Sequence record: SRR31156797_1620
Strand: one strand, 5' to 3'
Length of the DNA: 32,932 nucleotides
Made by a program: the position numbers and the translations under genes. Below, piece after piece: positions 1 through 16,487 of the stretch (position 1 is its first letter; each line of letters begins with the position of its first letter). Under the pieces are notes generated by a model. That model had not been told where the DNA came from and ran no database searches. It saw only the letters and a list, made by a program, of their open reading frames with translations.

Positions 1-210
1 GTGCTCAAATACGGCGACGCGCTACATTCGTCCTCCACTAAGTCAATGAGGCTACTATCCATTTAAATGTTCAGTTAATCTCCTAATTAAATTTAATAAG
101 CTTAATTATTTGATTATTGAGTTTATTAACCCTATAGATCTGTAAAAACAATGGCTTTCAATGTTTTGAATTTAACGAGTTCTAAACACTTTAATCGGAG
201 TAGTTAAGAG

Positions 211-870
211 ATGAGTTTGCAAAGACCCTTAGCATTAAACGTAATATTGACAACACTGTTCTTCTCCATATGCCTCGCAGTACAAGGTGCCAAGGCGTCA
301 GAAAACCTTGATAAAAAGAATGTCAAAAAAGAGAGTGCTATCCAAAGAACGAGTCAAACAGATTCATGCCAAGCTGCCCTAAGCCGTGTAGAAAAATCAA
401 TGTGTAGTAGTACGGAATTGAAGGCACTTGATTCGAAATTATCGAACATTTATTCCATTGCACTGAACAAAGCCGGAAACAATGAAAGTTACTTAGTTCG
501 TGAACAATCAGGGTGGGTTAAAGGCAAAAATGAATGCTGGAAGCATGAAGATATATACACTTGTATAGAGCAAGAGTACTTGCGCAGAATTGCTTATTTA
601 CAGGCGAAATATCAATTGGTGCCTTCTATTGGGCCATTGTTCTTTGCTTGCGAAGGAAACGCAGCCAATGAAATAGTGCTGACGTACTTTCATACAAACC
701 CGAGAACGTTGGTCACAGAAAAAGGAGATTCGGTATACTTCATGTATTTAGCAACGATTGATCCTTATCGATACCAAGGTAGGAACGAGTATGTTGAGGA
801 AAGAAATACTGAACTTCTGGTTTCTTTAGGCTATAAGAAACCAGAAGAACGTTGCATCGCAAAGCCATAA
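211..870 (+). CDS. Exported LprI/DUF1311 + MliC-like protein (lysozyme-inhibitor family architecture)
   Basis: N-terminal signal peptide. The DUF1311-type Cys pattern is present (C-x9-C, LKALDSKL..Y, EQSGW...NEC, CI...Y..RI..L). The C-terminal MliC-like part (FAC...RYQGRN...C) lacks the usual SASGARY loop. Confidence 0.7.
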   Translation: MSLQRPLALNVILTTLFFSICLAVQGAKASENLDKKNVKKESAIQRTSQTDSCQAALSRVEKSMCSSTELKALDSKLSNIYSIALNKAGNNESYLVREQSGWVKGKNECWKHEDIYTCIEQEYLRRIAYLQAKYQLVPSIGPLFFACEGNAANEIVLTYFHTNPRTLVTEKGDSVYFMYLATIDPYRYQGRNEYVEERNTELLVSLGYKKPEERCIAKP

Positions 871-915
871 TTCTCTGTAAACAAACTTAAATATAGGCAT
901 TAAAAAACACACTAT

Positions 916-1677
916 TTATACGCAGACGCGATCTTTCGCTGTGACATTTCGCTCCTTAGCTATGTTTCGCAATAGAATTAGAGCAAAAATTGCATTTGGA
1001 AAATTAAGTAAAATTGGACCATAGAGCGCCATCGAGTTAGAACCTTCACTGCTTACCTCTGGCGCTGCAGAACCAACAAGAAACAATAAGCAATCCCACA
1101 AAAAGTGGTAAATGATGGCTGTCCATATCGAGCCCGTACGGAGAACTATGGCTAACAATACCAGCCCACTCATACCTGCCGCGATAGACTGCATAATGGC
1201 AGGCCCAAGCTCACCGGTTATAAATACATTCAACGCGTGAACCGCTCCAAACAAAAAAGAAGTCAGGAGAATCGCTGACCAGATAGACATCGCTTGTTCA
1301 AACGCGCGAAATAAAATTCCACGAAACATGATCTCTTCTGAAGTCCCAACAAGGAAAGTATTTAACACAATGAACAATATAACGTTCTCAGTCGGTAACC
1401 CAAAATAGACAAGCCCTGCTAGGAATAAAATGAGATAAACACTAGGAAACCACATGGTGCGAAGAATCGAATACGGCTTGTTAAAACCGATATCCCTCCA
1501 TTTAAAAATGGCAATAGCGATAAGTAACAACGCAATGGCCAACAAGAAATGCCACCCTATTCCTTCGCTAACCAATTCAACCAATGAGACTTCGCTGCCT
1601 GCAATATATCGAGCACCAAGCATTGTGATTAGCACCCATGCAATATAAATAGCGAGGCTTATCAATATCCGTTTCAA
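916..1677 (-). CDS. CPBP/Abi (CAAX protease-like) intramembrane metalloprotease
   Basis: Multiple TM segments with motifs EEIMFRG, LFGAVH and HFLWD. Start moved to TTG 1677, which follows the SD AAGGAAGG. Confidence 0.88.
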   Translation of the reverse strand: MKRILISLAIYIAWVLITMLGARYIAGSEVSLVELVSEGIGWHFLLAIALLLIAIAIFKWRDIGFNKPYSILRTMWFPSVYLILFLAGLVYFGLPTENVILFIVLNTFLVGTSEEIMFRGILFRAFEQAMSIWSAILLTSFLFGAVHALNVFITGELGPAIMQSIAAGMSGLVLLAIVLRTGSIWTAIIYHFLWDCLLFLVGSAAPEVSSEGSNSMALYGPILLNFPNAIFALILLRNIAKERNVTAKDRVCV

Positions 1678-1745
1678 GTAGCCTTCCTTATACCTATTCA
1701 CTAAAACCTGCTCTCAAAGTACTACTCACGCTCTCGTAGGCAGAA

Positions 1746-2729
1746 TCAATCCTGATTGAAGAAGAAAACCAAACTTCCACCTTTAAACGCACTGCCATAG
1801 TTCACAGTCAAACCAATCCCTATATTTTCGATAAAACTGATATCGAAAGGTGGTGTCATCAACCAGCCTAACGTTGCTTCATAATAGAATGTGGTTCCTA
1901 AATTAGCGACAGCGTCGCTTCCGACATCAACCCTTCTAAGCGTGCTATATATTGACTGTTCAGAGGTTCCTATATGACTAAAATTATAGATAGCAGTCGC
2001 ACCGTTAGCGATATACCATCCTTCAGGGTTGCCTATATCCCCGTCATTCGCATCGCCCCAACCGTAGCCATAAAAATAATGACTGCTGGAAAACAATTTC
2101 CATGTTCCCCAATCCTCTTCTTGCTGATAGCTGAATTTGATGTGTGGTTCGTAAATATTAGCCCAAGCTGAAGTGTTGAATAACAGATCGTCAAATACGG
2201 GTTGAATTGCCTTACCGATTACGCTGTTATAAGTCATTGTATTTTGGTAATACATTAAGTGAGAGCCTAACCCTGGCTCAATCCGCCAGTTATCAGTTAA
2301 AGCGTATTCGTAACGATAGGCTATAAACATGTCCAGAACAGTTTGACTTAAATTATCGTCAACCGTTTGGTTATCCGTCCACCTAAGGGACTCTTCGGTC
2401 GCTAAGCCTGAAAAGCGGACCAATAACTCGTGCTTATTCGTCTCATTTTCATCATTCAGCCTAAATGATAGAGGTAACATGGAAATAGCGTATTTTTGTC
2501 TATTCTCAACAGAATCATCAGTACCTAGCTCATCGAACTGGCTATTGAACAAACTGTTTGGATTGAAGTCAGCGAAACCGACAGTGAAAACATCACTGTC
2601 ACTCATGACTACCGTGTAAGCAAAACTATGCTCGAGGAAATTGCTGATAACATCGTAACTCTGTGCATAAACCTTATTGCCACAGACTAGATATAACGAG
2701 AAGACACAAACCAAGCCTTGTTTTGACAC
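1746..2729 (-). CDS. Solitary outer-membrane autotransporter-like beta-barrel protein (Omp_AT/DUF3233 type)
   Basis: Signal peptide, VVMSDSDVFTVGFADFNP motif, amphipathic aromatic-rich strands and C-terminal GGSLVFFFN. Confidence 0.72.
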   Translation of the reverse strand: MSKQGLVCVFSLYLVCGNKVYAQSYDVISNFLEHSFAYTVVMSDSDVFTVGFADFNPNSLFNSQFDELGTDDSVENRQKYAISMLPLSFRLNDENETNKHELLVRFSGLATEESLRWTDNQTVDDNLSQTVLDMFIAYRYEYALTDNWRIEPGLGSHLMYYQNTMTYNSVIGKAIQPVFDDLLFNTSAWANIYEPHIKFSYQQEEDWGTWKLFSSSHYFYGYGWGDANDGDIGNPEGWYIANGATAIYNFSHIGTSEQSIYSTLRRVDVGSDAVANLGTTFYYEATLGWLMTPPFDISFIENIGIGLTVNYGSAFKGGSLVFFFNQD

Positions 2730-3105
2730 TGCGACCCTTTCCTTTTGGTATGTTGGATTTTCATCAAAATATTTTTATTAGCCTAATCATATGCCTAGGC
2801 AGTAGTTAGATATTATTAATTAGCAATCGTTATCTGAACAAGTAAATTCATCTAATTGTTCCCTTAGCCACATATGCAGACGCTCAAATATTCATCGTAG
2901 TTCATAAGTTTACCTCAAATACAAACACCAAACCTACACCTAAGTTAATTCATTGATTTTATTAATTATTATCATTATTAAATTTAATTAATCTTATTTT
3001 CCTCCAGACTGACCTAATCTCACGAAATCGATAATGCCCTTGAAGTTCGTTCTACATTCCTTGGACCTTAAGTAGCAGAATGATTTCTAAATAGTGGAGG
3101 CCTCT

Positions 3106-3945
3106 TTGCGGTTATTAATCCTATCTCTTATTTTGGCAGTAAGCGGCTGTGTGTCTGTTCAAACACCAACAGCTCCCCCAAAAAGCGATGTTGCTTCAAT
3201 TGAAGTCATTGAAGATCTACCAAGCGAAATGCCGAGAGGTACAACTCAGTTCAATCAATCGCAGCTCGTTTTTGTTCATGCTGACCAAGCATCGGAATTT
3301 TTAACCGGCTTAGTCGTACCTGTCCCTTTTGTTACAGGTATTGTCGTTGACTACGTAAACGATAGTGCTGCCGAAGGGTATGAAACAAAATTAAAACAGA
3401 TGCGCGTGTATGACATAGTGAACAACGAACTGGCGAAACAAGATGTGTCACAACTAAATAGTGAAGACTACAAACTATACCCGTTTGTGTTCATTGAAGA
3501 GTGTAATGATGACGTGTATAGGTTGTCACTAGCCTACCAATTGGAAAAAGATGGATGGATAGGGCGTTACTATTATCATCTGCCGACTACGATTCAAATA
3601 GAAGATATAGCCTCCCCAACACTCGAAACGCTAAGTTCCATAGACAATGATTTACACTTTGGCGTCCCAGTACTACTTCAAATTGTAGAGAATGATATTA
3701 AAGGTGAATTACCGCATTCAGGCAAAAAAGTTGAGGTCGGCAGTCTCTATATCGTGGGAGGTAACATCTCTGGGATAATTAGCCCAACAGTGTCTACGTT
3801 TAAAAACGCAGAAATCATTGATGAAACAACTTCGAATCTCACTATTAGTATTCCTGGAGACCCCACCGGCAAGGCAAAGAATGGAGGTATGGCTTTCGGA
3901 ATCCACTATTTCGAAAAGGGTCAATTGCATACTCTTATTCGTTGA
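3106..3945 (+). CDS. Hypothetical lipoprotein
   Basis: SD GGAGG (3096-3100) precedes TTG 3106; lipobox LAVSG-C. No family recognised. Confidence 0.75.
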   Translation: MRLLILSLILAVSGCVSVQTPTAPPKSDVASIEVIEDLPSEMPRGTTQFNQSQLVFVHADQASEFLTGLVVPVPFVTGIVVDYVNDSAAEGYETKLKQMRVYDIVNNELAKQDVSQLNSEDYKLYPFVFIEECNDDVYRLSLAYQLEKDGWIGRYYYHLPTTIQIEDIASPTLETLSSIDNDLHFGVPVLLQIVENDIKGELPHSGKKVEVGSLYIVGGNISGIISPTVSTFKNAEIIDETTSNLTISIPGDPTGKAKNGGMAFGIHYFEKGQLHTLIR

Positions 3946-4054
3946 ATAAAGTATGTAAAGTGTATAAAGAGGCTGGTTCAGACAACGCAATTAGCTGAGT
4001 ATCTAGTTGATTGCTTGTAGTGAGGATGATCTTAAGTATCGAAAAAATCGTCAA

Positions 4055-4119
4055 AAAAAACAAATTATGTGTAGAAAACTGTATGTTTTTTGGGGGGACG
4101 ATTTATGGATTCAGGGACA
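4055..4119 (-). mobile_element. Right end of a second (distal) Tn7-like element extending leftward
   Basis: The minus strand from 4119 reads TGTCCCTGAATCCATAAATCGTCC, with a terminal TGT and CATAA at position 13. Further CATA cores at 4085 and 4069 give 22- and 16-bp spacing, the same as the ffs-proximal right end. Confidence 0.72.
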
Positions 4120-4138
4120 ATATTTTTGCTAGAGCAGA

Positions 4139-4240
4139 TGTCGCTGAAACCATAAGATATCCTAATTACCTAAAGAAAATTAATCAGTTACCAACATAGT
4201 AAAACTATATAGTATCCTAGCATGAAAGCATAAGGTGTCT
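4139..4240 (+). repeat. Tn7-like left end with widely spaced TnsB-type binding sites
   Basis: TGT terminus and CATA-core sites at 4151, 4195 and 4229. CATAAGGTGTC (4229-4239) matches CATAAAGTGTC in the right end (12129-12119, minus) at 10/11. A partial IHF-like AATCAG lies at 4182-4187. Confidence 0.78.
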
Positions 4241-4645
4241 TATTTAACGCTTCCGTTTAACCCTAATGATAATTATTAAAGAAAACTACTTACATACTAT
4301 TCACATCAACTACTTGATTTCATCCAGATGCATATAAATCTCAATGACAAAGCCGCTTGGTAATGACGGTACAACAAATAGGATTTGTGTGATTGTTTTA
4401 CCTATACGCTAATTTTAATGCCAATTATTCATTACAACTTAACAGTTAGAGGCTATAACACGATACCGCGATTGAAACATAGTCCAAACAAATCATCATG
4501 CGCTCTTGAATCGCTGATCCCATTAAGGACTGAGCACGATGATTATCGCTTGCAGACATGATTTGCTTATTCAGAAGAACGGCAGAACTTCTTCAGAGAA
4601 TAACGCCCCAGTTCTTTACTACACGTGTTTAAGTAAAAAAATTAT

Positions 4646-6949
4646 TCATTGATATGTTTCCCATGCCCCCCAAATACTTGCGCTATCTTTTCGGTTCGAT
4701 AGTTTTGTCGCCAACATAGCTTGGACTTCCCTAATGGCTGCAGGAGGAGAATATGAGTCTGTATTGATGAGGTCAGCGACTTGCGACATAAATTCATACG
4801 TCTCATCAGAGACGACATTCCATTGCGATGCAATTACGCTTGATGCTCCAGCATACTGAAACGAAGTGATCAGTGAATTGAAGCTACCCTCTACTTCACC
4901 TGCACCCGCAGTGTTACATGCGGCAAGCAGTACAGAACTGTCGCTGATATCCAAGTTAGCTATCTCATCAGCCTGTAGAATACTATCATTGGATTGATCA
5001 TTAAAATCGATACTCATTGCCAGCCCTGGGTATGGGACTGGATTGCTTTTCGAAGGGAATATCGTATGAGTCGAAAAGCTGATGAAATTCCAGTTTCCCT
5101 GGTTAATTGAGCTCTTGACTGTCGATTCCACAGCTTCTTCCTGCGTTAGCAATAACCGGCGATAACGACGATGCTGCCCTAGTAGAGCCAGAGACTCTAA
5201 TAACGTATCAGGCAAGGCATCCAGCCTGATCACCGTATTCTGACTTTCAAAATAGGGCGACATCTCAAACTTTGGCGGTGGTGGTGCGTAGAACACAGGG
5301 TCAGAGATGGCGAGTCGATTATTGGTACCGCCAGCCTTTTCCTTATTCACTCCGATACGATTTAGTAAGCTGTATCGAGAAACGGACTTTTCTTCCACTA
5401 ACCACTTTTTGCTGCGTGAATTATAAAGCGTCGCGATAGGCAACTGCTCCAAAACCCCATAGGAAACAACTGATATTGCAGGACTGGATATATTTTCAAT
5501 ATCCAGTGTCTTTGTCAGTTTATAGCCGCTTTTACGCGCATCTCTGCGCTCAATGATATTTTGACGATGTGCTGCAATGGCTTGATAAAGAGAATTTGAC
5601 TCAACCACTTTAACCCGAAAGTCGTGAGAATTGATATAATACATCACGCTCTCTGTCCCTAGGTCCACTACATACAGAAGTGTCTCATCCTTTCGAAGAT
5701 TCGACTGGATATTTGTCATATCACTCGCACTGGTTCTCGAAGAAGCTTGGAACTTACTGGCCAGACTAGCAATGCTTTGGATTAAAGATTCATTGTTTAG
5801 CTCGCCGTTTTTTAGCTTCCTGGACAATTCCTGCTGAAGTGAGACTAACTGTTTATAGCGTTGTTCGGATTTCCCTTCCAACCTCATTACCGGTGCGACC
5901 GGATTAGTCACAAACAAATGTTGGGATATTTCGAAAACAACCTTCTGGACTTCCTTACTGTTGGGGTAGGCATTAAGAAGTGATACTAACAGCGCGTTAA
6001 TTTGGGGCTTCATTTTAATTTGTCGACCGTAATCATAGGCATTTAAAATGAGTCTGAATGAGCGAACGGCGTCCTCCAAAAATGCGCGTCTTTGAGGCTC
6101 TTGGTTAAATGCACTCAATAGATTGATTAGGAGTTGGTTTTCAAGTGATATGTTTTCAGGTTTTCTCGAAAAGTATTCGCCAATTTCCTTGTCCAAACTG
6201 TAGCGATGGGCAGAACCTTTGAGTAACACGATTTCTTTCATCACTGCGATAGAAAGCAGGTTATCAGATACAAATGTTGTCTTTTTATCTATGTAGCCAC
6301 CGGCATCAAACGCTCTTACCTGTTTGTTTAACTCGGAATAGGCCCCCTCTGAAAGTAGCCGTTGTAAATAATCCAAATATCGTGTGGATGCATGATAAGG
6401 GACAAGCGTCGATGAAATAAACACTTGGTTGTCTTGCCGTAACGCTGCAATCAACCGTTCCTGATCTTCTCTGGCATTATAGTCTGATGGATGGGTTAAA
6501 GAGAACGCATCGAGTCTGAGCTCATCATCCTCTATATCAGAGTCATTAATCACTTGCCTTGCGTAATAGTACGCCAGTGTTTGTCGACCAGATTTAATGT
6601 ACAAGGACAGCAGTTGACCAAGTATTTGTTGATATTCTGATAAGTAATAATCTTTGATCGGGTAGATTTCACTTTTCAGTGTTAGCAACTGATTTTCTGC
6701 CGCAACTAACTCTGTCCCAAGTAATACTTGCAGATCCGAGATATTCAGTGCAAGCTCCAGTGTATCCAAAGGGTCCGAGCAAGCTGCGGAGGCCTTTTGG
6801 TAGACCTTCTTAAGGTTATCCAATTGAGTGTAGTTAGGGTTTTGTAACCATGATCCCATTAAGGCCCTGTGCTGACGGTTTACGTCTTCTAGGTTACATG
6901 AATATGCTGTCGAAACAAACAATAGCCCAAGTAGTAGCAGAAACTTCAT
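4646..6949 (-). CDS. Exported CHAT-domain (caspase-like, clan CD) protease with helical/TPR-like N-terminus
   Basis: Signal peptide MKFLLLLGLLFVSTAYS. CHAT motifs: SYGVLEQLPIATL, WLVEE, ISDPVF, LDALPDTLLE, FISFSTH (His628), VLLAACNTA (Cys678), FQYAGASSVIASQWNV, WGAW. Confidence 0.9.
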   Translation of the reverse strand: MKFLLLLGLLFVSTAYSCNLEDVNRQHRALMGSWLQNPNYTQLDNLKKVYQKASAACSDPLDTLELALNISDLQVLLGTELVAAENQLLTLKSEIYPIKDYYLSEYQQILGQLLSLYIKSGRQTLAYYYARQVINDSDIEDDELRLDAFSLTHPSDYNAREDQERLIAALRQDNQVFISSTLVPYHASTRYLDYLQRLLSEGAYSELNKQVRAFDAGGYIDKKTTFVSDNLLSIAVMKEIVLLKGSAHRYSLDKEIGEYFSRKPENISLENQLLINLLSAFNQEPQRRAFLEDAVRSFRLILNAYDYGRQIKMKPQINALLVSLLNAYPNSKEVQKVVFEISQHLFVTNPVAPVMRLEGKSEQRYKQLVSLQQELSRKLKNGELNNESLIQSIASLASKFQASSRTSASDMTNIQSNLRKDETLLYVVDLGTESVMYYINSHDFRVKVVESNSLYQAIAAHRQNIIERRDARKSGYKLTKTLDIENISSPAISVVSYGVLEQLPIATLYNSRSKKWLVEEKSVSRYSLLNRIGVNKEKAGGTNNRLAISDPVFYAPPPPKFEMSPYFESQNTVIRLDALPDTLLESLALLGQHRRYRRLLLTQEEAVESTVKSSINQGNWNFISFSTHTIFPSKSNPVPYPGLAMSIDFNDQSNDSILQADEIANLDISDSSVLLAACNTAGAGEVEGSFNSLITSFQYAGASSVIASQWNVVSDETYEFMSQVADLINTDSYSPPAAIREVQAMLATKLSNRKDSASIWGAWETYQ

Positions 6950-6951
6950 AG

Positions 6952-8190
6952 TTACATTAAGCCTTCACCTAACGGCGTACGATTCAAGGTGCCCAAATAA
7001 CCGATAACGGAAAACTCTTTCGAAGACTGATCCGTAAAGTCTACATAATCCTTCCTCAGCAAAGAGTATTTTTTGTCCATAGAACTATAGTAATTTCCTT
7101 TCGGTTTAGGTACGTCCAGAACATCACGATACATCACGTGAGTTGCCACAACTAGTTCATCAATGGCTGATTTTGGTGAAGACTTACTCAGCACAATATT
7201 GACCGCTTCACTGAGAGAGTTCTTGAACTGTTTCTGTCGTTCAGAGTTTAAAAGATGGAAATATCGAATCAAGACTTTTGAATAGTCACCATTAGACGGC
7301 ATCCTCTCGGATTCTGGGACCGATTCATAGCATGACCATAGGTAGATGAAATATAATCTAATTTTTACATCATCCGAATTCGACTCAGTAGAGTCCAATT
7401 TACTTAGGGCTAGCTTAAGGTCTTGAGGTATAAGAATCCGTTGGCCACTTTGAATGTACATGGCCACCATAGCATCTAGATTTGGGGAACGTTCCGATTT
7501 AGGTATCTTATTCCATAGTGTATTCACATACTGTACACGTTTGCCTTTTTTCTGGTCACCAAGAATAACTTTTGACAGTGTGATCTGATAAGCTTGAGCC
7601 CCATTCGTTTTGGACAATTTGCCCTCTAGCAGTTGCCATTCTCGTAAATCTTGACCAAGTCTGAGGTAGTCATGCTTAAGATTCTTTATCTGGCGCTCAT
7701 CGTACCGGACGTCAATAAAATTCGACATAAAGATGGCAGAACCGTAAGGGTTTTGGCGACTAGTATGCGCGAGCGTATTGATAGCTGAATCTGCTGACAT
7801 CCCATCAACAGTTCCTCCAGTTTCAGGTGTGTTCAACTTCGAATGATACAATTGGTTCGTTCCTTTTATCCCCTGTTTAACAGCGTTAGCATCTTGCTCC
7901 AAAGCGAAATTAGAATCTCGATACAGCGCTTTAGCTAACGCTCTGACATGTTTCTGTGCCTGATCATATTGTCTTTCTTGATGGGCCAAATAGGCTTTGA
8001 AATACTCGCATACCGCTATCGAAGCTGTATCTTTGTATTTCCCACAATCCCACTTTTTGATGGTTTGATTATGTGTTTTAACATCACTCGGTTCACTATT
8101 TAGCAATTGAAGCGGAGTCGTTGCAGCGTAAGTACCAAACGAAACTGATACTCCTAAAAGGAAAAGCAATGGTTTATTCATGACAAACAT
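6952..8190 (-). CDS. Exported alpha-helical protein with a TPR-like repeat
   Basis: SD GGAG and a signal peptide ending TYA. TPR-like segment YFKAYLAHQERQYDQAQKHVRAL. The stop lies 2 nt before the CHAT start. Confidence 0.7.
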   Translation of the reverse strand: MFVMNKPLLFLLGVSVSFGTYAATTPLQLLNSEPSDVKTHNQTIKKWDCGKYKDTASIAVCEYFKAYLAHQERQYDQAQKHVRALAKALYRDSNFALEQDANAVKQGIKGTNQLYHSKLNTPETGGTVDGMSADSAINTLAHTSRQNPYGSAIFMSNFIDVRYDERQIKNLKHDYLRLGQDLREWQLLEGKLSKTNGAQAYQITLSKVILGDQKKGKRVQYVNTLWNKIPKSERSPNLDAMVAMYIQSGQRILIPQDLKLALSKLDSTESNSDDVKIRLYFIYLWSCYESVPESERMPSNGDYSKVLIRYFHLLNSERQKQFKNSLSEAVNIVLSKSSPKSAIDELVVATHVMYRDVLDVPKPKGNYYSSMDKKYSLLRKDYVDFTDQSSKEFSVIGYLGTLNRTPLGEGLM

Positions 8191-8201
8191 ATGGCTCCAT
8201 A

Positions 8202-9077
8202 CTAATGGTCAAAATTAAGTGAATCACGTATTAAGGCTTTTAAACGGATAGAAACTCCCTTACTCTCTACAGTCATTGGTTTCTGACTTTTTCCAATGTA
8301 TTTGTACTCTAGGTTCGTCTCACAGACATATTTGTAACCTATTTGACAAAGATGCATAGTTACCAAAAGATCTGTGGGTACACTCGACTGCTGATTTTGT
8401 GTTAGCTGATTGAGAGCCTTGTCTAAATCGTACGAGTCAATTTGAAGCGAGCTTTGTGCGATTTTTTGGTTGGCATGATAAAAGGTTATCTTGTAAGCCC
8501 CCTCATTTAGTCCCGGATTCTTAAACCCTTCAAAAAATGTTCCCATCCGTACCGTTTTGGTACCTTGTGTGAGGATATAGCTTACTTGCGAATAATCTGG
8601 GGCTTTATTACACACAAGTTTCAAAAATGGCACCGAAACGTCCGTTTGTGGCAATAAAATTTGGTCAGGCGACAGGCATTTTAACTCCCCTTCAATCACT
8701 TCATCTCCCCGAACGACCCCGCCAAGCGTTCTCTGCCCTGCAACCTTCACATCGTCACCGATGAACATACCAGGAAAGGTGATCACCGCTGGACCATACA
8801 ATTCTTCACGTTCGACTTTCCCGTAAATCTGCTTGTACCAGACCAACATCCCGCCAGAGTCCAGAGAAACCTCAGTTCCCTCATAAATCGTATTGCTCGC
8901 CTTGAGCGCGGTCTGTCCTGTTTGATTGGGTAAAAGTGCCGTAACTTCCCCTTTTACTTCGACAACTAACGCTTTCATCTCCTTGATGTTGCCAGCCTGA
9001 GTATGGAATGACAGGCACAGAAACAGCATAATGAGGAAGCTCCTTGAGGTGGTCTGCATGATTATTTTTTTTATCAC
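8202..9077 (-). CDS. Exported protein with FecR-like N-terminal beta region and a DUF928-like GGxxRG linker / beta-sandwich part
   Basis: Signal peptide ending TQA. ALVVEVKGEV...LKASNTIYEGTEV resembles FecR N-termini, followed by RTLGGVVRG. Start is GTG 9077 (SD AAGG) or ATG 9059. Confidence 0.6.
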   Translation of the reverse strand: MIKKIIMQTTSRSFLIMLFLCLSFHTQAGNIKEMKALVVEVKGEVTALLPNQTGQTALKASNTIYEGTEVSLDSGGMLVWYKQIYGKVEREELYGPAVITFPGMFIGDDVKVAGQRTLGGVVRGDEVIEGELKCLSPDQILLPQTDVSVPFLKLVCNKAPDYSQVSYILTQGTKTVRMGTFFEGFKNPGLNEGAYKITFYHANQKIAQSSLQIDSYDLDKALNQLTQNQQSSVPTDLLVTMHLCQIGYKYVCETNLEYKYIGKSQKPMTVESKGVSIRLKALIRDSLNFDH

Positions 9078-10389
9078 GGTCGAGTACCTTTGCTGTTGTT
9101 AATAAGACAATGAAGATAGCCAGCAACAATGGTAACGTCAGACTCAGAGACAATTGGTACTCTGAGAAGACAATGCTAGCGTATAGATATGATAAGTAAA
9201 TCAAGACGCCTATGATGGCAAATGCACAGGCAAAAACAGAAAGCTGCCTATATCGTGACTCAAGAAGAGTTGAAGATACAATTCCCCAGTAAAGCACTAA
9301 CAAGACAATACAGATCAAGGTGTAAAACGTATAAGCCACCTTAAGGGAATGGCTAGCTGTTACGTCACTAGCTGGGTGCAGGTAGTAATGACCATCAACT
9401 AGGTTCAAGTACGCACTTATATGCGCATAGACGCCTGGCAGTTTTCCATCATGTCCTGCCTGTTTGGATAACCCTGACCAGATCAGTACTCTGTTGAAAA
9501 ATGAGTCTGTACTTTGCGAACCAATATAAAAATGATCTTGATTGACATCCCATGTGGTCGCCACAAAAACCGTCTTACCTTCCACATCAATCAAGTCATT
9601 TTCTAACTTAAACGCCAAGTCCCACGCACTATAGGTTCTGTTATCCAACTCTGACAAATTGTTGGGAACCACTAACCAATATCGCCCATTTGAAACAAGG
9701 TTGTCTGGAATGCCGACTGCACTCTTTCGCAGTTCTGTATTATTTCCAGCATTATGCGAACGGTGAAACACAGCTAATGACAAAGAGGGTACCCTTTCAT
9801 TATTTACTACCTGATAATAGACCAGACTATTGACGGCACCATAGCGATCTTCGGTGTCAAAGAGCGACAGTTTTCCCCAGTTGTACATTAGTATGTCACC
9901 AGGGAACAGGTTCTTAGGAGGCGCAACTTCAATAGCACGGTTTCCTCGGTAAACAACCTGGCTACCTACTACTATCTTGTTTTTCAGTATTTCAGATATA
10001 GGGAACGCTTCTCCTGAGTAATCGAACAAATAGTCCAGAACGACCAGTTTCGCCTCGTGTTTCACAAGCAATTCGGCCAACTCTAGAATATCTCTTCGGG
10101 TTTCAGGAAAAGAGGTTTCGTGTGAAAACTGTCTGTCGAATGTCACCAACGCAATATCCGACATGGAAGGGCTCTGATACTCTTGTTCGAAGGAGCGGAT
10201 CGCGCTCACTGAAAACACATCATTACCACTGAAGTAGTCCAAACTTGAGATCACTATCAGCGCTGTCACGATCGGAAACAAAAACGTGAGCATTACCATT
10301 TTTATCAATCTTGATGTGTACGTACCCGACATCCATTGAACAGAAGAAAATACCTGCTGACTCTTATAATTTCTAAGGACCCGTTTCAA
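8881..10389 (-). CDS. CHASE2-domain membrane sensor lacking a cytoplasmic output domain
   Basis: N-terminal TM. CHASE2 motifs: DIALVTFD, AKLVVLDYLFD, PSLSLAV, GKTVFV, LPGVYAH...NL. Three C-terminal TMs follow, then only a short tail that overlaps the next gene. Start codon uncertain. Confidence 0.85.
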   Translation of the reverse strand: MKRVLRNYKSQQVFSSVQWMSGTYTSRLIKMVMLTFLFPIVTALIVISSLDYFSGNDVFSVSAIRSFEQEYQSPSMSDIALVTFDRQFSHETSFPETRRDILELAELLVKHEAKLVVLDYLFDYSGEAFPISEILKNKIVVGSQVVYRGNRAIEVAPPKNLFPGDILMYNWGKLSLFDTEDRYGAVNSLVYYQVVNNERVPSLSLAVFHRSHNAGNNTELRKSAVGIPDNLVSNGRYWLVVPNNLSELDNRTYSAWDLAFKLENDLIDVEGKTVFVATTWDVNQDHFYIGSQSTDSFFNRVLIWSGLSKQAGHDGKLPGVYAHISAYLNLVDGHYYLHPASDVTASHSLKVAYTFYTLICIVLLVLYWGIVSSTLLESRYRQLSVFACAFAIIGVLIYLSYLYASIVFSEYQLSLSLTLPLLLAIFIVLLTTAKVLDRDKKNNHADHLKELPHYAVSVPVIPYSGWQHQGDESVSCRSKRGSYGTFTQSNRTDRAQGEQYDL

Positions 10390-11014
10390 AATACATCAAT
10401 CCATGAGTTCATAAAACACGCATCACTCTAGGTATGCACTTACATAAACCGTTTAAGGTAAGAGCACCAATAAGTAAACCAGTCTTTCATATTAAATAAA
10501 TATTAGTAAATCAAGATGAATAAGTGACAATTATGAGAACTAGATCGTCAATCAATGGCTCTAATCTATATAGTTCACCGTAATCTACGTGCGACTAATA
10601 GAGTAATCCTAAACTTAAAAACCACTTCTTAACGTTAACCACATATTAATAGGTTTTAATGTGACTGCATTTACCAATACTTATATACGCTTTAAAAATT
10701 CCATAGTTTCAATAAGTAATAATACACAATCAGAAAAATACAGATCATTCGTTACCATCAACGAACAAATAGTACATTTCTCACTGTATTCATACAAAAA
10801 TGTCGTTAAACTTCAATAAAACTTCTTCTATATGTTCAGTTTCAACGAAAAGAAGAGTCTGCATTTAACAAGAACTACCAACATCAAATAAAATATATGG
10901 TTAACCGAGAGTTTAAAAAATAATGACGCTTTACCCTTGTAAATAGCAACGGCGCATTAAACTACCGCACTATAATGATTTATTCTTGTCATTCCTGACC
11001 TAGAGGCAATTACG

Positions 11015-11800
11015 ATGAAAATTAATAGAATAAGATTATGTGTGATGCTATTGGTAAGTTTCGGGGGAGTGTATTCTGCTTCCGCAGGAAACTACGAACA
11101 TGGCAATTATCCCATGTTTTCACATTCACAATTATTTTCAACGGGCGACACGGTTAGCAGTCGCCCAAATAAAATCAGCAATGCAATCGAATCAAACCAA
11201 ACTGTTAGCCTAGGATACGACAACAAATTTCGCAGTGCAAAACGCTATATATTTCCAGAACAATATTTTGGAAAGAGCTATTACCCCGACAAACTAATGA
11301 CTAGTCAGTTTGTTGATTCTTTTCAACAAGTCATCGCAGAGTTTGCATGTGCAGAATACCGATTCAGAAATAGGATGCCAGAACAAACTGAGTGTGACGG
11401 TTATATTGGAGATCAAAACAAAGTAGAGGAAATGCCTTTTGTATCTGGTCAATATAGTTCAGCAAGAATTGAAGTTAATCGTGACTCTAAACGAGAACAA
11501 GTAAGCTTCTACACTTACTTGAAGAGTTCATCAGAGCGACCTTTAAGTAGCACTTTTGGAGCGGTACACCAATTAGGTACTTTATTTGGAAGAATGGCAA
11601 GCAGTAAAAGCTTAGTGCTAAGTCTTAATTTAGAAGCGTTTACTCTTGATAGCGACGGGATTCGGTTATCTCCAATAAATAACAAACCCCTGACCTATTT
11701 TATTGTCATCCCCAAATCTGCAGATATAGCAAAACAGAAGAACCAAGATACAGCAGCTCGGTTTGTCTTGCAAAACGCAAAACTGATCTTACTTAGGTAG
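11015..11800 (+). CDS. Hypothetical secreted protein
   Basis: SD GAGG, signal peptide ending ASA, 261-aa ORF. No family recognised. Confidence 0.75.
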   Translation: MKINRIRLCVMLLVSFGGVYSASAGNYEHGNYPMFSHSQLFSTGDTVSSRPNKISNAIESNQTVSLGYDNKFRSAKRYIFPEQYFGKSYYPDKLMTSQFVDSFQQVIAEFACAEYRFRNRMPEQTECDGYIGDQNKVEEMPFVSGQYSSARIEVNRDSKREQVSFYTYLKSSSERPLSSTFGAVHQLGTLFGRMASSKSLVLSLNLEAFTLDSDGIRLSPINNKPLTYFIVIPKSADIAKQKNQDTAARFVLQNAKLILLR

Positions 11801-11953
11801 TTCAAAAACCATCGCCAAGCTGTAAGCACAATTGTCTAATTTACTTATCAGTGAAATAACCGTGATTAAATAGTGGGCTGGCTTCTATATCAAGAACTGA
11901 ATAGCCACCGAGTCGGATATTAGTTCGCCTTTTCTAATATTACTTCTCGTACT

Positions 11954-12073
11954 CTACAGGTTACAGCAATGTTCCAATGAGCTTTCGCACATGATGGTGC
12001 AGCCATTTTTTACACTAACAAACTTATAAACGTTTTTGTTTGCTGAAGGTTTTAGAAGATTGTGAACGCACAT
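11954..12073 (-). pseudogene. tnsA: Truncated/frameshifted TnsA endonuclease N-terminus
   Basis: Hand translation gives MCVHNLLKPSANKNVYKFVSVKNGCTIMCESSLEHCCNL* behind SD AAGGA. This matches the recalled I-F3 CAST TnsA start (MYIRNLRKPSPNKNVFKFAS.K....MCESSLE), and it sits directly inside a right end, where tnsA belongs. Confidence 0.85.
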
Positions 12074-12104
12074 AACCTGTCCTTTTTCTGTTGTAAAAAA
12101 CAAC

Positions 12105-12161
12105 CAAAATAGGCTTTGGACACTTTATGGGTTTTATTGGGATGTTTTATGATATCAGATA
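12105..12161 (-). repeat. Degenerate Tn7-like right end with closely spaced TnsB-type sites
   Basis: Cores at 12151 (CATAAAACATCC), 12129 (CATAAAGTGTCC) and a weak one at 12113. The terminus reads TAT rather than TGT and is 2 bp short relative to the left end. Confidence 0.7.
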
Positions 12162-12167
12162 TCAGAT

Positions 12168-12275
12168 GGGTGGAAGCCCCAGCCACATCCCGGCACACAC
12201 GTCATCCGCTGTGGCTGCTTCCTTCCGGATCTGACCAAGTTCACGAACTAGTGTTGCGGGAGGACCAGGGCCTCC
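12168..12275 (-). ncRNA. ffs: Signal recognition particle 4.5S RNA
   Basis: The minus strand contains the conserved GGTCAGATCCGGAAGGAAGCAGCC domain IV, with pairing 5' GGAGGCCCTGG and 3' CTGGGGCTTCC ends. Confidence 0.97.
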
Positions 12276-12312
12276 ATAGAGCATCTTTGGTTTGCGCCAA
12301 AGAGTGGGAAGG

Positions 12313-12341
12313 ATTATCAAGCATCGACTGCTTCATTGCAA
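12313..12341 (-). promoter_or_regulatory. Sigma70 promoter of ffs
   Basis: -35 TTGCAA (12341-12336), 17-bp spacer, -10 GATAAT (12318-12313). Confidence 0.7.
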
Positions 12342-12401
12342 GTCTAATTCCCAGTTATGTCTCTGTTTACGAATCAATTGGCTATCAATTAGGCAAATCG
12401 A

Positions 12402-14426
12402 CTAATTATGTTGCGAACCGTTTTGCTTTGCGCGAATCGGAGTAACAATAGCAGCCCGTTTATGCTTTGCTTCATACATCGCTTGATCGGTTTGGTGCAT
12501 CACCTCTTGCAATGACATGTATTTACCACGATTGGCAGAGATCCCCACCGCTGCGGTCACTTCAAAGCTGACATCTCTTTCAACATCAACAAAGATAAAA
12601 CGCTTAAGATACGCACGTAGCTCTTCCAGTTTATCGACTTTGATGTTGCCCACTAACACAAACTCATCACCTCCGATACGGTACGCTCGACCTTTCCATA
12701 CCTGCGCAATACGTTGAGAAAACTGCTTTAGGACTTTATCGCCGATCTCATGCCCGTAATTATCATTGATTTGTTTGAAGTGGTTTAGATCCAAATAGAC
12801 AAGCGTACACTTACCAGCAATTCCTCGCTTATATCGACGATACAGGGATCGACGGTTACGAAGTTTGGTCAAGTTGTCGGTATTGGATTGTTGATGTAGA
12901 TACAAAGCGACCATGACGAGCAGAGCCATCGCGATGAGGAATAACCATTGGCTGTGACGGGTAAAGCGCTTTTCGACCGCTAAAGTAGCGCGCCAATCCG
13001 GTAGGTAATCGTAGGTTTTCACTATTTTTTGTGTATCCATCATTTTGATGGCTCTTGAAAACAAAGAGGATAGTGTTTCGCCAAACGGTGTTTTGGTAAA
13101 ACCGATTGCCGTATCAAAAGAATAAAAGCTACCAATCATTGTGTCTTCAACAAATGGTACTAAGTCATCCGACTCTCTTAAGAATTGATTAAAGTTCCCT
13201 CGACTCATGACAATATAATCTACTTCTTTCGAATATAGAGCATCGATTAAGTCAGCTTGAGCGGGTACCGTTATTAACGTTTTCCTTGGTAACATTCGGC
13301 TTAATAGATCTTCGAAGAAATCATCTTTCACAACACCAATGCGTTCTGCGACGAGTTCAGACACATTACTGTAGACAAAATCTTTGTAGCCTTCCCTTTT
13401 CACCAGAATGGCTTCTGGGTGATAGTAACTATCACTAAAATTAACCAGTTCTTTGCGCTGTTCAGTCACGGTTAGCGGCGCAATAATATCAATTTTATGT
13501 TGGCGAATATCATTGTACATACTCTCCCAAGACTCGCTGGCTGTACTGGCTAATTCGCATTTCAGCAATAAAATGTCGCACGCTTTAAAAACCACATCCG
13601 CGCTGATACCACTGACTTCACCATCAAGGTGATAAGTTGTGTATGGCGGAACATTCTCTAGTTTTATTTTGAGCGGACGCTGCAAATTGATGCCACCATC
13701 AATCACAGCCTGACGCAAAGCATGTTTACGAATATCAAACTGATACTTTTGGATAGACTCGCGCAATAGTTTCTGAACTTTCGCAGAATGAACGTAATGT
13801 TCGATCTGATTCAACAGTTCGTTGTGTTTATCCAACGGCGCAATAATAGAAACGGGTTGAATGGACAATTGATCATTGAGCAACTGAGCATCAAAACCTT
13901 TTAATAGCATCGGCTTAAGCTGATTAATTGCATCGACCGTACCATCCACCGCTGAAAGCTCGAGTAATCGTTGAGCGTGGGCTGAACCGTAATAGTTCAC
14001 TAGCTTAATTTGAGGAAAATTCTGCTTAATTAAATCACCATAAATCGTGCCGGCAGGCACACCGACTACACTCATATCCTCCAACTTATTGTTGGTTTTA
14101 CTGAATAAATAGGTGTACTCAATGTTGGTTGGACGCGAGAAAGAAAAACGCTTTTCCCGTTCAGGCGTGTAAGTAACATTCGCTGCAAAGTCACTTTTAC
14201 CCGCTTCTACAGACTTTAAAATGGAATCGAAACTGGGGTAATTTACGTATTCAACATCGATATTAAAGTGATAGGCGACATCATCAAAAATGACGCGCGT
14301 CACTACATCGTCAGCTTCTGTTGCGACAAGGTATGTTTTGATTGAATCATTTGCAGCAAAGGCTGGCGACTGTGCAAGACACAGTAACACCAACAACCTA
14401 CTACAAATCGTTAGAGCCCTAGACAT
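12402..14426 (-). CDS. cdgH: Diguanylate cyclase with two periplasmic substrate-binding (family 3) domains
   Basis: Signal peptide, tandem PBP domains, TM, DNLTKLRNRR and an intact GGDEF with no RxxD I-site. Architecture and synteny match V. cholerae CdgH. Confidence 0.85.
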   Translation of the reverse strand: MSRALTICSRLLVLLCLAQSPAFAANDSIKTYLVATEADDVVTRVIFDDVAYHFNIDVEYVNYPSFDSILKSVEAGKSDFAANVTYTPEREKRFSFSRPTNIEYTYLFSKTNNKLEDMSVVGVPAGTIYGDLIKQNFPQIKLVNYYGSAHAQRLLELSAVDGTVDAINQLKPMLLKGFDAQLLNDQLSIQPVSIIAPLDKHNELLNQIEHYVHSAKVQKLLRESIQKYQFDIRKHALRQAVIDGGINLQRPLKIKLENVPPYTTYHLDGEVSGISADVVFKACDILLLKCELASTASESWESMYNDIRQHKIDIIAPLTVTEQRKELVNFSDSYYHPEAILVKREGYKDFVYSNVSELVAERIGVVKDDFFEDLLSRMLPRKTLITVPAQADLIDALYSKEVDYIVMSRGNFNQFLRESDDLVPFVEDTMIGSFYSFDTAIGFTKTPFGETLSSLFSRAIKMMDTQKIVKTYDYLPDWRATLAVEKRFTRHSQWLFLIAMALLVMVALYLHQQSNTDNLTKLRNRRSLYRRYKRGIAGKCTLVYLDLNHFKQINDNYGHEIGDKVLKQFSQRIAQVWKGRAYRIGGDEFVLVGNIKVDKLEELRAYLKRFIFVDVERDVSFEVTAAVGISANRGKYMSLQEVMHQTDQAMYEAKHKRAAIVTPIRAKQNGSQHN

Positions 14427-14632
14427 AGACGTTTATTGTATGTTTTTTTGAATTTTTAATATTATTTAATAATATCTAAACTATTCTAGATTGCACAATT
14501 TTTCATTTAATGAGCATCATAAGTTTGCACTAGATTTGATTTTTATATGCATGACGACTCATTTAGTGCTGAACCACACAAATCGATAGCTAGAATTGGA
14601 TTTGTTAATTATAGACTCAGGATTTGGCAAAC

Positions 14633-14935
14633 ATGGACCAATTTTTAACTCAGATTTTTACGGTTATTTATGACATTCCGGAAGGAAAAGTATCAACTTA
14701 CGGAGAAATCGCGAAAATGGCGGGTTACCCAGGTTATGCTCGCCATGTGGGTAAAGCATTAAGCAAGCTACCGAAAGGAAGTAAAATGCCATGGTATCGA
14801 GTGATCAACAGTAAAGGCGAAATCTCTTTGACTGGCCCAGACTGGGAACGCCAACGCGAACGTTTAGTTTCAGAAGGCATTGCGGTAAGCAGTTTGGGGA
14901 AGATTTCGCTCAATAAATACAAGTGGCAGCCATAA
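14633..14935 (+). CDS. atl: Alkyltransferase-like protein (MGMT family, YbaZ/Atl)
   Basis: IPEGKVSTYGEIA, ARHVG and PWYRV (Trp in place of the catalytic Cys). Confidence 0.88.
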   Translation: MDQFLTQIFTVIYDIPEGKVSTYGEIAKMAGYPGYARHVGKALSKLPKGSKMPWYRVINSKGEISLTGPDWERQRERLVSEGIAVSSLGKISLNKYKWQP

Positions 14936-14945
14936 CGCTGCCACT
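14922..14945. terminator. Hairpin between convergent atl and ybaY
   Basis: AGTGGCAGC-N6-GCTGCCACT. Confidence 0.55.
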
Positions 14946-14968
14946 CTCCAACACTCTGAACTATCGTA

Positions 14969-15406
14969 TTACTTTGAACTTACACCGACCAAACGCATAT
15001 CAACATGTTTAGTGCTGTCGCCATCGGTAATAACACCATAACTGGTATCGGTGATAAAGCGCAGTTTGCCGTTAACCTCAATACGCGCAGATACTGTATA
15101 ACGGTGCTTAGGCTGAATTTTCGAACTGTCATAAGAGAGATCAAAAGTCAGTGGGACTTGATGGCCATTGGTGATGAACTGCTGCTTAGCAATAACCTCG
15201 GCAGGCGCGTCCATCTTAGACACATCTTGCAGCGATACAGTAACTTTCGCATCATCCGGTAGCAGAATACGTTCGCGGTATGCAATTGTGCCTGTCACTG
15301 ACTGAATTTTTTGTTCTGTCATTTTTGTCCCCGATGATTCGCATCCAACAAGAAATACCGAGCCCATCACTAACGCTGCTATATATAAAAGTGCTTTTTT
15401 CATCAT
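14969..15406 (-). CDS. ybaY: YbaY-family lipoprotein
   Basis: Lipobox LVGC; VTGTIAYRERILLP, LQDVSKMDAPA and GHQVPLTFDL. Confidence 0.9.
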   Translation of the reverse strand: MMKKALLYIAALVMGSVFLVGCESSGTKMTEQKIQSVTGTIAYRERILLPDDAKVTVSLQDVSKMDAPAEVIAKQQFITNGHQVPLTFDLSYDSSKIQPKHRYTVSARIEVNGKLRFITDTSYGVITDGDSTKHVDMRLVGVSSK

Positions 15407-16486: not shown

Positions 16487-16487
16487 A

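What the first reader, a model, noticed from the sequence alone, without database searches (positions are those of the whole stretch)
4055..4138. Second Tn7-like right end back-to-back with the first element: stacked insertions
Seen: 19 bp outside the left end, the minus strand reads TGTCCCTGAATCCATAAATCGTCC. Its CATA cores are spaced 22 and 16 bp apart, as in the ffs-proximal right end, and both ends are followed by a TTGTTTTTT tract. No tnsA follows. Inference: another element in the same orientation inserted about 14 bp further from ffs, so a different spacer or insertion distance was used. The locus has grown into an island by serial CAST insertion. The target duplication of this element would be ATATT (4120-4124), and I could not find its left end in this window.
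Basis: partly seen in the sequence, partly recalled or inferred. Interest (0 to 1): 0.7.

Follow-up and report, generated by a model that had tools for sequence, protein, structure and literature searches.

The report
Fossil second transposon end near ffs
This is the worn-out right end of an older CRISPR-guided-transposon-type element, sitting back to back with the left end of a second dead element downstream of the ffs gene; it is an ordinary relic of repeated insertion at one genomic hotspot.

Summary
On the minus strand, 4096-4119 reads TGTCCCTGAATCCATAAATCGTCC. It lies 19 bp from an inverted copy, TGTCGCTGAAACCATAAGATATCC (4139-4162, plus strand).

- **A real end family.** A 24-nt pattern covering both copies hit 6 places among about 185,000 species genomes. 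All 6 were Vibrionaceae.
- **An intact relative.** In Vibrio albus this end family flanks a complete type I-F3b CRISPR-associated transposon at ffs.
- **L1 is a left end.** 4139-4240 aligns without gaps to four family left ends.
- **The finding (R2) is a right end.** It has a weak second site 22 bp in. It also has the right-end-specific T-rich segment (0 of 2000 shuffles reached its score).
- **R2 is a fossil.** No tnsA or other transposition gene follows it, and no partner left end lies in 1-4095.
- **The ffs-proximal element is dead too.** Its right end has collapsed and only 37 tnsA codons remain.

V. albus shows the same left-end/right-end abutment, there with a perfect 5-bp duplication. 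Metagenome contigs of a near-identical strain join 3943 to 12163 and so lack the 8.2 kb between. However, they carry 181 unread letters where R2 should be.

Verdict: stacked insertion at ffs is largely supported, but the order of events and R2's cargo are unproven. This is a new member of a known kind, of modest interest.

The parts
4096..4119 (-). R2 terminal 24-mer: the TGT terminus (4117-4119) plus a strong TnsB-type site (4096-4114).
   Evidence: Sequence read. PWM score 23.4. It fits the family 24-nt pattern whose 6 of 6 genome-contig hits are Vibrionaceae.
4074..4092 (-). R2 second site, weak (CAAAAAACATACAGTTTTC), 22 bp from the first. This is right-end-type spacing.
   Evidence: It was not a PWM training site and scored 14.0. 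It scored 9.0 under the flat-background PWM, a level reached at about 4e-5 per position and strand in 30 shuffled windows. It aligns to family site 3.
4055..4073 (-). R2 sub-terminal segment (TACACATAATTTGTTTTTTTT), homologous to the family's right-end-specific TAAACTTATTTTGGTTGTTTT.
   Evidence: Local alignment of the R2 inner part scored 41 against the ET07 right end (shuffles 16.8 +/- 3.3; 0 of 2000 reached it). It scored 37 against V. albus C31 (1 of 2000 reached it). See also alignment A1.
4120..4138 (.). 19-bp spacer between the two termini. It is inferred to be original DNA downstream of ffs. It holds the putative duplication of R2's element (ATATT, 4120-4124) and of element 1 (GCAGA, 4134-4138, which reads TCTGC on the minus strand).
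   Evidence: Sequence read. The minus-strand TCTGC matches TCTGA at 12162-12166 in 4 of 5 positions. The rest is inference.
4139..4240 (+). L1, the left end of the ffs-proximal element. Sites lie at offsets 5, 60 (weak) and 83 from the TGT terminus.
   Evidence: It aligns without gaps to four family left ends (V. albus, V. crassostreae, Photobacterium sagamiensis, Vibrio sp.) with 72% mean column identity.
12118..12161 (-). R1, the collapsed right end of the ffs-proximal element. It keeps two sites, has lost one 22-bp unit, and its terminus reads TATC instead of TGTCGC.
   Evidence: Alignment A1 and PWM scores 20.2 and 24.6. Homology with the nearest relative (L124) starts at 12083.
11963..12073 (-). 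tnsA stub: codons 1-37, followed by stop codons.
   Evidence: tblastn with V. albus TnsA gave 84% identity over 37 residues, E 2e-15. The translation shows the stops.
12162..12166 (-). Putative ffs-side copy of element 1's 5-bp duplication (TCTGA). The sister-strain contigs stop matching at 12163.
12174..12270 (-). ffs (4.5S / SRP RNA), the attachment-site gene.
   Evidence: Rfam RF00169, 70.5 bits, E 6.4e-14.
211..3945 (.). Four accessory genes that may be leftover cargo of R2's element: an LprI-like protein, a CAAX protease, an Omp_AT barrel and a 283-aa protein of unknown function.
   Evidence: Pfam results are. The 283-aa protein has a homologue in 1 of 285 Vibrio species genomes. The nearest relative's Omp_AT copy is only 64% identical and lies on a different contig from ffs. 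That these genes belong to R2's element is inferred, not shown.

Best explanation
Window 4055-4119 (minus strand) is the decayed right end, 'R2', of an older Tn7-like element. Its ends belong to the family used by a type I-F3b CRISPR-associated transposon that homes to ffs in Vibrio albus.

**Likely history (inferred)**
1. An element of this family inserted downstream of ffs, right end towards ffs, with its terminus 26 nt past the ffs model end. It later lost tnsABC and tniQ-cas.
2. A second element of the same family homed to the same site 14 bp nearer ffs (at +12, duplication TCTGC/TCTGA). That pushed R2 8 kb away and left its own left end, L1, 19 bp from R2.
3. The second element then decayed as well: one 22-bp site was lost, its terminus changed from TGT to TAT, and tnsA was cut to 37 codons.

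**Present state.** R2 is inert. It keeps one good and one weak TnsB-type site, has no transposase genes, and has no partner left end inside the window.

**Shown:** the identity and type of R2, L1 and R1; the absence of transposition genes; the parallel in V. albus; and the absence of the 8.2 kb in a sister strain.

**Inferred:** the order of events, the +26 insertion point, and that genes 211-3945 are R2's cargo.
For: - **Family membership.** The 24-nt end pattern hit 6 of 6 places in Vibrionaceae. Each has more sites in register, and tnsA follows in V. sagamiensis and V. albus.
- **The family is a CAST family.** V. albus contig C22 runs ffs, then 11 nt, then the right end, then TnsA/TnsB/TnsC. 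Further on come tniQ, cas8, cas7 (PF09615, E 1.3e-66), cas6 and a CRISPR.
- **R2 is a right end.** Its second site lies at 22 bp. Its inner part aligns to family site 3 plus the right-end-specific T-rich segment (0 of 2000 and 1 of 2000 shuffles reached the score).
- **L1 is a left end.** It aligns without gaps to 4 family left ends.
- **Element 1 is a dead family member.** R1 aligns to family right ends minus one site. A tnsA stub follows at 84% identity.
- **Stacking happens in this family.** On V. albus C31 a left end is followed by ATCT and then a three-site right end. ATCTT flanks both the C22 right end and the C31 left end.
- **Element 1 is a discrete unit.** One contig in each of two runs of one study joins 3943 to 12163, skipping 8219 bases. 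The ffs-side boundary falls exactly at the inferred outer edge of R1.
- **Genes left of R2 are accessory.** The 283-aa protein was found in 1 of 285 Vibrio species genomes. The 9 island proteins gave 0 tblastn hits within 10 kb of ffs in 4 relatives.
Against: - No left end, and hence no testable ATATT duplication, exists for R2's element in 1-4095.
- The sister-strain contigs match only up to 3943, not 4138. They carry 181 letters where about 191 alignable letters were expected if only element 1 were missing. So R2 may be absent or different in that strain.
- Those joints come from low-depth contigs (about 3-4x) of a single study, laid at 90% likeness, with only 37 and 30 letters on the ffs side.
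- The +26 insertion point is unusual. The Petassi et al. [quoted passage not shown] The other family members seen here sit at +11.
- Element 1's duplication matches in only 4 of 5 positions, and its right terminus is degenerate.
- The total number of PWM hits in the window (8 at score 9 or more) is within the range of shuffled windows (1-9 in 20 shuffles). Only their clustering and register are informative.
Confidence: 0.6

Rival explanations
1. R2 is a genuine family right-end relic, but it does not bound an element containing genes 211-3945. On this reading the whole segment 3944-12162 (R2 relic, spacer and element 1) was imported as one block. The route could be homologous recombination after transformation from a donor in which the stacking had already happened. 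Genes 211-3945 would be older resident DNA next to ffs.
For: Sister-strain contigs are about 99% alike up to 3943, which is the stop codon of the 283-aa gene. They then carry 181 letters that did not lay on 3944-4138 before rejoining at 12163. No tnsA trace or other family homology lies between R2 and 3945.
Against: The 181 letters are close in length to the roughly 191 expected. They may simply be a diverged, indel-bearing, AT-rich homologue that fell below the 90% cut-off; other pieces of the same strain differ by up to 3% (15 letters in 512). The 283-aa gene is far from core (1 of 285 Vibrio species genomes). So DNA left of R2 is island DNA in any case.
Confidence: 0.25
2. R2 arose by rearrangement inside a single element rather than by a second insertion. 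Possible routes are duplication or inversion of an end, or an aberrant one-ended transposition event.
For: R1 lacks one site and a proper terminus, whereas R2 keeps a good terminal site. V. albus also shows collapsed single-site right ends.
Against: R1 and R2 each carry their own site-3-like unit and their own T-rich segment, so they are not two halves of one end. They point the same way. R2 differs from the family consensus in 3 of 24 positions, which fits independent age. The sister-strain joint removes L1 to R1 as one unit.
Confidence: 0.1
3. The pair is a chance palindrome, or a hairpin or operator unrelated to transposition.
For: The inverted 11-mers TTTCAGCGACA / TGTCGCTGAAA with a short loop occur as palindromes in unrelated bacteria. 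In one search, 40 of 41 loci were non-Vibrionaceae, and they had no cluster of family sites.
Against: The similarity extends well beyond the palindrome. L1 matches family left ends over about 105 nt. R2 matches the right-end-specific inner segment. The 24-nt pattern is restricted to Vibrionaceae transposon ends.
Confidence: 0.03

Closest known systems
Type I-F3b CRISPR-associated Tn7-like transposons that home downstream of ffs (Petassi et al. 2020 preprint, passages read; Annu Rev Biochem 2024, PMC11406308, passage read)
   Same: It has the same attachment gene (ffs), with the right end facing ffs and a TGT terminus. It has arrays of repeated TnsB-type sites, and the host group is Vibrionales.
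   Different: The window has no tnsB, tnsC, tniQ, cas genes or CRISPR, only a 37-codon tnsA stub at the other end. [quoted passage not shown]
The ffs CAST of Vibrio albus E4404 and its neighbouring relics
   Same: It uses the same end family. The terminal 24-mer is identical to L1 in 17 of 24 positions and to R2 in 16 of 24. A left end abuts a second right end in the same orientation, and there are collapsed right-end relics and a truncated tnsA.
   Different: In V. albus the ffs-proximal element is intact. The gap is 4 bp, with a perfect ATCTT duplication that overlaps the neighbour's first base. The distal right end keeps three strong sites and 108 tnsA codons. In the window the gap is 19 bp and both elements are dead.
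Islands built by repeated Tn7-like insertion at one attachment site, such as Tn6022 in Acinetobacter baumannii comM (PMC11014353, passages read). The older Tn7/glmS island literature is recalled only; one title was seen in the reference list.
   Same: It shows several insertions at or beside one site despite target immunity. Events are told apart by 5-bp duplications, and relics have ends that are hard to recognise.
   Different: The transposon family, the targeting mode (CRISPR-guided homing to ffs rather than TniQ/TnsF proteins at comM or TnsD at glmS) and the host all differ.

Membership tests
Tn7-like transposon right end (Vibrionaceae I-F3b end family) | Terminal 5'-TGT | tested here: met
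   TGT lies at 4119-4117 on the minus strand.
Tn7-like transposon right end (Vibrionaceae I-F3b end family) | Closely spaced direct repeats of the transposase-binding site (about 22 bp apart), in contrast to the 5/60/83 offsets of left ends | tested here: met
   Sites lie at 4096-4114 (strong) and 4074-4092 (weak), 22 bp apart. There is no site at left-end offsets. Only two sites are present, whereas V. albus and ET07 have three; V. sagamiensis also has two.
Tn7-like transposon right end (Vibrionaceae I-F3b end family) | Sequence homology to ends of elements that encode TnsA/TnsB/TnsC | tested here: met
   Shown by the pattern hits, alignment A1, the shuffle test and the Pfam hits on V. albus TnsABC.
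Tn7-like transposon right end (Vibrionaceae I-F3b end family) | tnsA immediately inside the right end | tested here: not met
   tblastn found nothing near R2 at E 0.01 or better or with the V. plantisponsor proteins. The inward-facing 283-aa gene ends at 3945.
Tn7-like transposon right end (Vibrionaceae I-F3b end family) | Cognate inverted left end with a matching 5-bp target duplication | not testable with these tools
   There is no plus-strand site in 1-4095. No whole genome is held. The probable source run's contig begins 4 letters before window base 1.
Tn7-like transposon right end (Vibrionaceae I-F3b end family) | Binding by the cognate TnsB | not testable with these tools
   This needs a gel-shift or footprint experiment.
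Type I-F3b CRISPR-associated transposon (complete element) | tnsA-tnsB-tnsC plus tniQ-cas8-cas7-cas6 | tested here: not met
   The window has no Pfam hit among 27 ORFs. tblastn with 7 and 8 CAST proteins found only TnsA residues 1-37 at 11963-12073. The feature is met in the relative V. albus C22.
Type I-F3b CRISPR-associated transposon (complete element) | [quoted passage not shown] | tested here: inconclusive
   The window has no array. In V. albus there are two typical repeats, but no 32-mer in the 1 kb downstream of cas6 matched ffs in 21 or more of 32 positions. Atypical repeats and up to 10 mismatches are reported for such spacers.
Type I-F3b CRISPR-associated transposon (complete element) | Location downstream of ffs with the right end proximal | tested here: met
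   ffs lies at 12174-12270 on the minus strand. R1 and R2 both read on the minus strand, away from ffs.

The most novel reading that the evidence does not exclude
CRISPR-guided homing to ffs by this I-F3b family is not effectively blocked by resident ends of the same family. In V. albus an intact CAST sits 4 bp from a three-site right end, and in this window a second element went in 14 bp from R2. If so, the ffs island is a layered record of successive occupants. The +26 against +11/+12 insertion points would point to a second guide register on ffs.
Probability: 0.25. Interest if true: 0.55.

Novelty: new member of a known kind. Interest (0 to 1): 0.3.

Why it matters
- **Annotation.** DNA downstream of ffs in this Vibrio is a patchwork of dead CRISPR-guided-transposon relics and their cargo, not core genome. 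A short end motif is enough to mark the layers.
- **Target immunity.** Together with V. albus, this gives natural examples of re-insertion beside same-family ends. That bears on how strong target immunity is for I-F3b elements.
- **Engineering.** These elements are being adapted as genome-engineering tools, where tandem insertions are unwanted.
- **Limits.** The relic has no evident function, and the phenomenon of islands built by serial Tn7-like insertion is already described.

Tried and rejected
- The 17-nt pattern was too degenerate. It returned 120 stretches across all phyla. In one search, 5 of them had a second PWM hit, none of these 5 at family spacing; only L124 was real.
- Megablast of 3000-5000 against plasmids gave no match.
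- No whole genome is held for the window.
- The 283-aa protein gave no relatives in genome contigs by the search for related loci.
- The metagenome-contig scan with the 219-aa protein gave one irrelevant 27-residue match, so the DNA left of the window was not reached.
- PADLOC gave 0 families for the 9 island proteins.
- CAST proteins of the unrelated V. plantisponsor element gave nothing below E 0.6 in the window.
- No ffs-matching spacer was found in V. albus.
- An attempt to define the native gene downstream of ffs failed. The DUF4432 gene that follows ffs in Vibrio sp. Y2-5 lies on other contigs in two relatives.
- The back-to-back pattern scan found V. albus plus 40 unrelated palindromes, so it gives no estimate of how common stacking is.
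- Short-word blastn of 3900-4140 against 14 family loci found nothing useful.
- There were no earlier notes of this scan.
- X2-X4 give no cover over 4341-12152. Where no joint crosses such a gap, the missing cover is not evidence. X4 had no bridging contig.
- The G119 homologue of the 283-aa gene has no family sites or synteny nearby.
- **Rejected idea.** R1 and R2 are not two halves of one split right end, because each has its own inner site and T-rich segment.

Full report
**What the window is.** The window is Vibrio chromosome. A GGDEF protein gene next to ffs found four Vibrio loci at 77-90% protein identity. The nearest, MAG ET07-04 (L124), is 84-89% identical in DNA over about 12 kb. ffs (Rfam RF00169, 70.5 bits) lies at 12174-12270 on the minus strand. 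To its right are ordinary core genes such as the men operon and an aminotransferase. Synteny with all four relatives stops within a few bases of the ffs 3' end: at 12156-12164 in three of them and at 12083 in L124. Pfam found no Tn7 or Cas domain in any of 27 ORFs.

**The observation.** The minus strand of 4096-4119 reads TGTCCCTGAATCCATAAATCGTCC. After a 19-bp gap (4120-4138), the plus strand reads TGTCGCTGAAACCATAAGATATCC from 4139. The two TGT termini face each other across the gap, so the bodies of the two elements lie on opposite sides. Minus-strand CATA cores start at 4107, 4085 and 4069, giving spacings of 22 and 16, and a T-run follows. The ffs-proximal end has only two CATA cores, at 12151 and 12129. 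The position 16 nt further on reads CCTA.

**It is a real end family.**
- A loose 17-nt pattern gave only chance hits in all phyla.
- The 24-nt pattern TGTCNCTGAANCCATAARNNRTCC gave 6 places in genome contigs. All 6 are Vibrionaceae: five Vibrio, one of them the ET07 place already held, and one Photobacterium.
- Each place has further sites in register. V. sagamiensis and V. albus C31 show contiguous sites followed by a tnsA reading frame. V. crassostreae, P. sagamiensis and Vibrio sp. 99-70-13A1 show sites at offsets 5, 60 and 83, which is the left-end layout.

**The family belongs to a type I-F3b CAST.** On V. albus contig C22, ffs is followed after 11 nt (CCACCCATCTT) by the right end. Next come TnsA (207 aa), TnsB (635 aa) and TnsC (328 aa), then type I restriction-modification cargo. 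After that come tniQ (403 aa), cas8 (696 aa), cas7 (PF09615, E 1.3e-66), cas6 and two CRISPR repeats. I did not find the ffs-matching spacer. This agrees with passages of Petassi et al. 2020 and the 2024 Annual Review, which place I-F3b elements downstream of ffs. V. plantisponsor and a related MAG carry a different intact I-F3 CAST at ffs, with ends starting TGTGCAAA, 14 nt past the ffs model end.

**Typing the three ends in the window.**
- **L1 (4139-4240)** aligns without a gap to four family left ends over about 105 nt, including the conserved inter-site block.
- **R1 (12118-12161)** aligns to family right ends but lacks one 22-bp unit, and its terminus reads TATC rather than TGTCGC. It is followed by 37 tnsA codons, 84% identical to V. 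albus TnsA (E 2e-15), and then by stop codons.
- **R2 (the finding)** has a strong terminal site. A PWM found a non-training second site at 4074-4092, 22 bp in.
- **R2's inner part.** Its inner 60 nt align to family site 3 plus the right-end-specific T-rich segment. The score was 41 against the ET07 right end, where shuffles gave 16.8 +/- 3.3 and 0 of 2000 reached it. It was 37 against V. albus C31, where 1 of 2000 reached it. Homology ends there.
- **Nothing follows R2.** There is no tnsA trace or other CAST trace near it.
- **A caveat on the PWM.** The total of 8 hits at score 9 or more is within the range of shuffled windows (1-9). Five of the 8 hits were training sites. One training site was entered one base out of register and corrected afterwards. 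Only the position and register of the new hit carry weight.

**Geometry.** Count from the first base after the ffs model end (12173 = +1). The minus strand reads CCACCCA TCTGA and then the degenerate R1. Outside L1 it reads TCTGC TCTAGCAAAAATAT and then R2. This fits element 1 inserting at +12 with duplication TCTGC/TCTGA (4 of 5 positions match). V. albus and ET07 sit at +11. R2's duplication would be ATATT (4120-4124), which is untestable here.

**A parallel case.** On V. albus C31 a left end (terminus 4962) is followed by ATCT and then a three-site right end with a 108-codon tnsA remnant. The C22 right end is flanked by ATCTT. The C31 left end is followed by ATCT plus the T of the next TGT, which also reads ATCTT. 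The intact C22 CAST has no left end on its own contig and runs off the contig start. So it most likely ends at the C31 left end, having inserted 4 bp in front of an older right end. A third, single-site right-end relic (terminus TAT) with a tnsA start lies 15 kb further on. ET07 has an orphan three-site right end at ffs with no tnsA. Right-end fossils at ffs are thus recurrent in this group.

**Evidence from sequencing runs.**
- Eight runs were listed. X1 holds all sampled words and may be the source.
- When laid on window 1-13000, X1's contig spans from 4 letters before base 1 to 12195. The assembly therefore breaks at the window's left edge.
- X2, X3 and X4 are soil metagenomes of one study. 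They hold 1-3943 in short contigs at about 2-5x depth, mostly 95-100% alike.
- One contig in X2 (463 nt) and one in X3 (388 nt) join 3943 to 12163. From the listed pieces, each has 181 letters between the two matched parts (463-245-37 and 388-177-30).
- X4 had no such contig.
- The ffs-side boundary (12163) coincides with the inferred outer edge of R1. This supports element 1 being a discrete 8-kb unit that a sister strain lacks.
- The other boundary is 3943, the stop codon of the 283-aa gene, and not 4138. So the sister strain's 181 letters did not lay on 3944-4138, where about 191 alignable letters were expected. They could be a diverged copy of the R2 region or something else. I could not read them.
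- Cautions: one study, low depth, 90% likeness, and short sides.

**Are genes 211-3945 core genes?** No.
- The 283-aa protein has a homologue in 1 of 285 Vibrio species genomes, at 62% identity and in an unrelated context.
- Omp_AT homologues are common (173 of 285), but the best is only 71% identical. The nearest relative's copy is 64% identical and on a different contig from ffs.
- None of the 9 island proteins has a tblastn hit within 10 kb of ffs in four relatives, or in the family loci apart from the G119 homologue.
- GC content is about 0.40 over 1-12000 and about 0.44 beyond.
- In Vibrio sp. Y2-5, ffs is followed by TetR, HPP and DUF4432 genes with no family sites. This looks like an unoccupied site.

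**Verdict.** R2 is almost certainly a fossil right end of the I-F3b end family (about 0.95). It most likely marks an older insertion later displaced by a second homing event (0.6). The main rival is that R2 arrived as part of the imported 8.2-kb block (0.25). Target immunity, and multiple insertions recognised by their duplications, are described for Tn6022 (passages of PMC11014353). Island building by Tn7-like elements is established knowledge, which I recall rather than read; one title appeared in a reference list. My two literature searches listed no paper whose title or abstract start describes stacked I-F3b relics at ffs. They are a thin basis for saying nothing is in print. I did not see the supplements of the Petassi preprint, which list the elements. 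This is a new member of a known kind, of modest interest.

Noticed in passing
window 4646-10389 (minus strand): Element 1 carries a four-gene cassette as cargo: a CHASE2-domain protein (502 aa), 291-aa and 412-aa proteins with no Pfam hit, and a CHAT-domain protease (767 aa). None hit PADLOC. It could be a signalling or defence module.
   Followed up: partly
window 12152-12166: A 7-bp direct duplication (TCTGATA twice on the minus strand) sits at the junction of ffs and R1. The R1 terminus reads TAT instead of TGT. A V. albus relic (L139:19848) also has a TAT terminus.
   Followed up: partly
L124 12268-12370 (MAG Vibrio ET07-04): An orphan three-site right end lies 11 nt after ffs with no tnsA. 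It is followed by two Band_7/SPFH genes and nhaA.
   Followed up: partly
L139 4861-5034 and 19848-19930 (V. albus C31): A left end abuts a right end 4 bp apart. A third, single-site right-end relic with a tnsA start lies 15 kb further on. That relic's outer flank, CACCATCT, resembles the ffs 3' flank CCACCCATCT.
   Followed up: partly
L121 and L122, about 12250-21630: A different, intact I-F3 CAST (ends TGTGCAAA..., then tnsABC-tniQ-cas8-cas7-cas6) occupies ffs in V. plantisponsor and a related MAG. It sits 14 nt past the ffs model end.
   Followed up: partly
window about 12166 (run X1, record 3): A 350-nt contig at depth 490 (the main contig is at 3259) joins the ffs 3' flank directly to a terminator-like hairpin (AAAAAGCCGCTAATAAAAGCGGCTTTTT). 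This may be an unoccupied ffs site in a co-occurring genome or a subpopulation. A similar hairpin flanks the left end in L130.
   Followed up: no
L143 7755-7851 (V. albus C22): The CAST's CRISPR has only two typical repeats. No ffs-matching spacer was found at 21 or more of 32 positions within the 1 kb downstream of cas6.
   Followed up: partly
G001:C23:24126-25535 and G004:C14:15498-16915: The DUF4432 gene that follows ffs in Vibrio sp. Y2-5 is interrupted by stop codons in two relatives.
   Followed up: no
window 1-60: The probable source run's contig begins 4 letters before window base 1. The island therefore runs into an assembly break.
   Followed up: no
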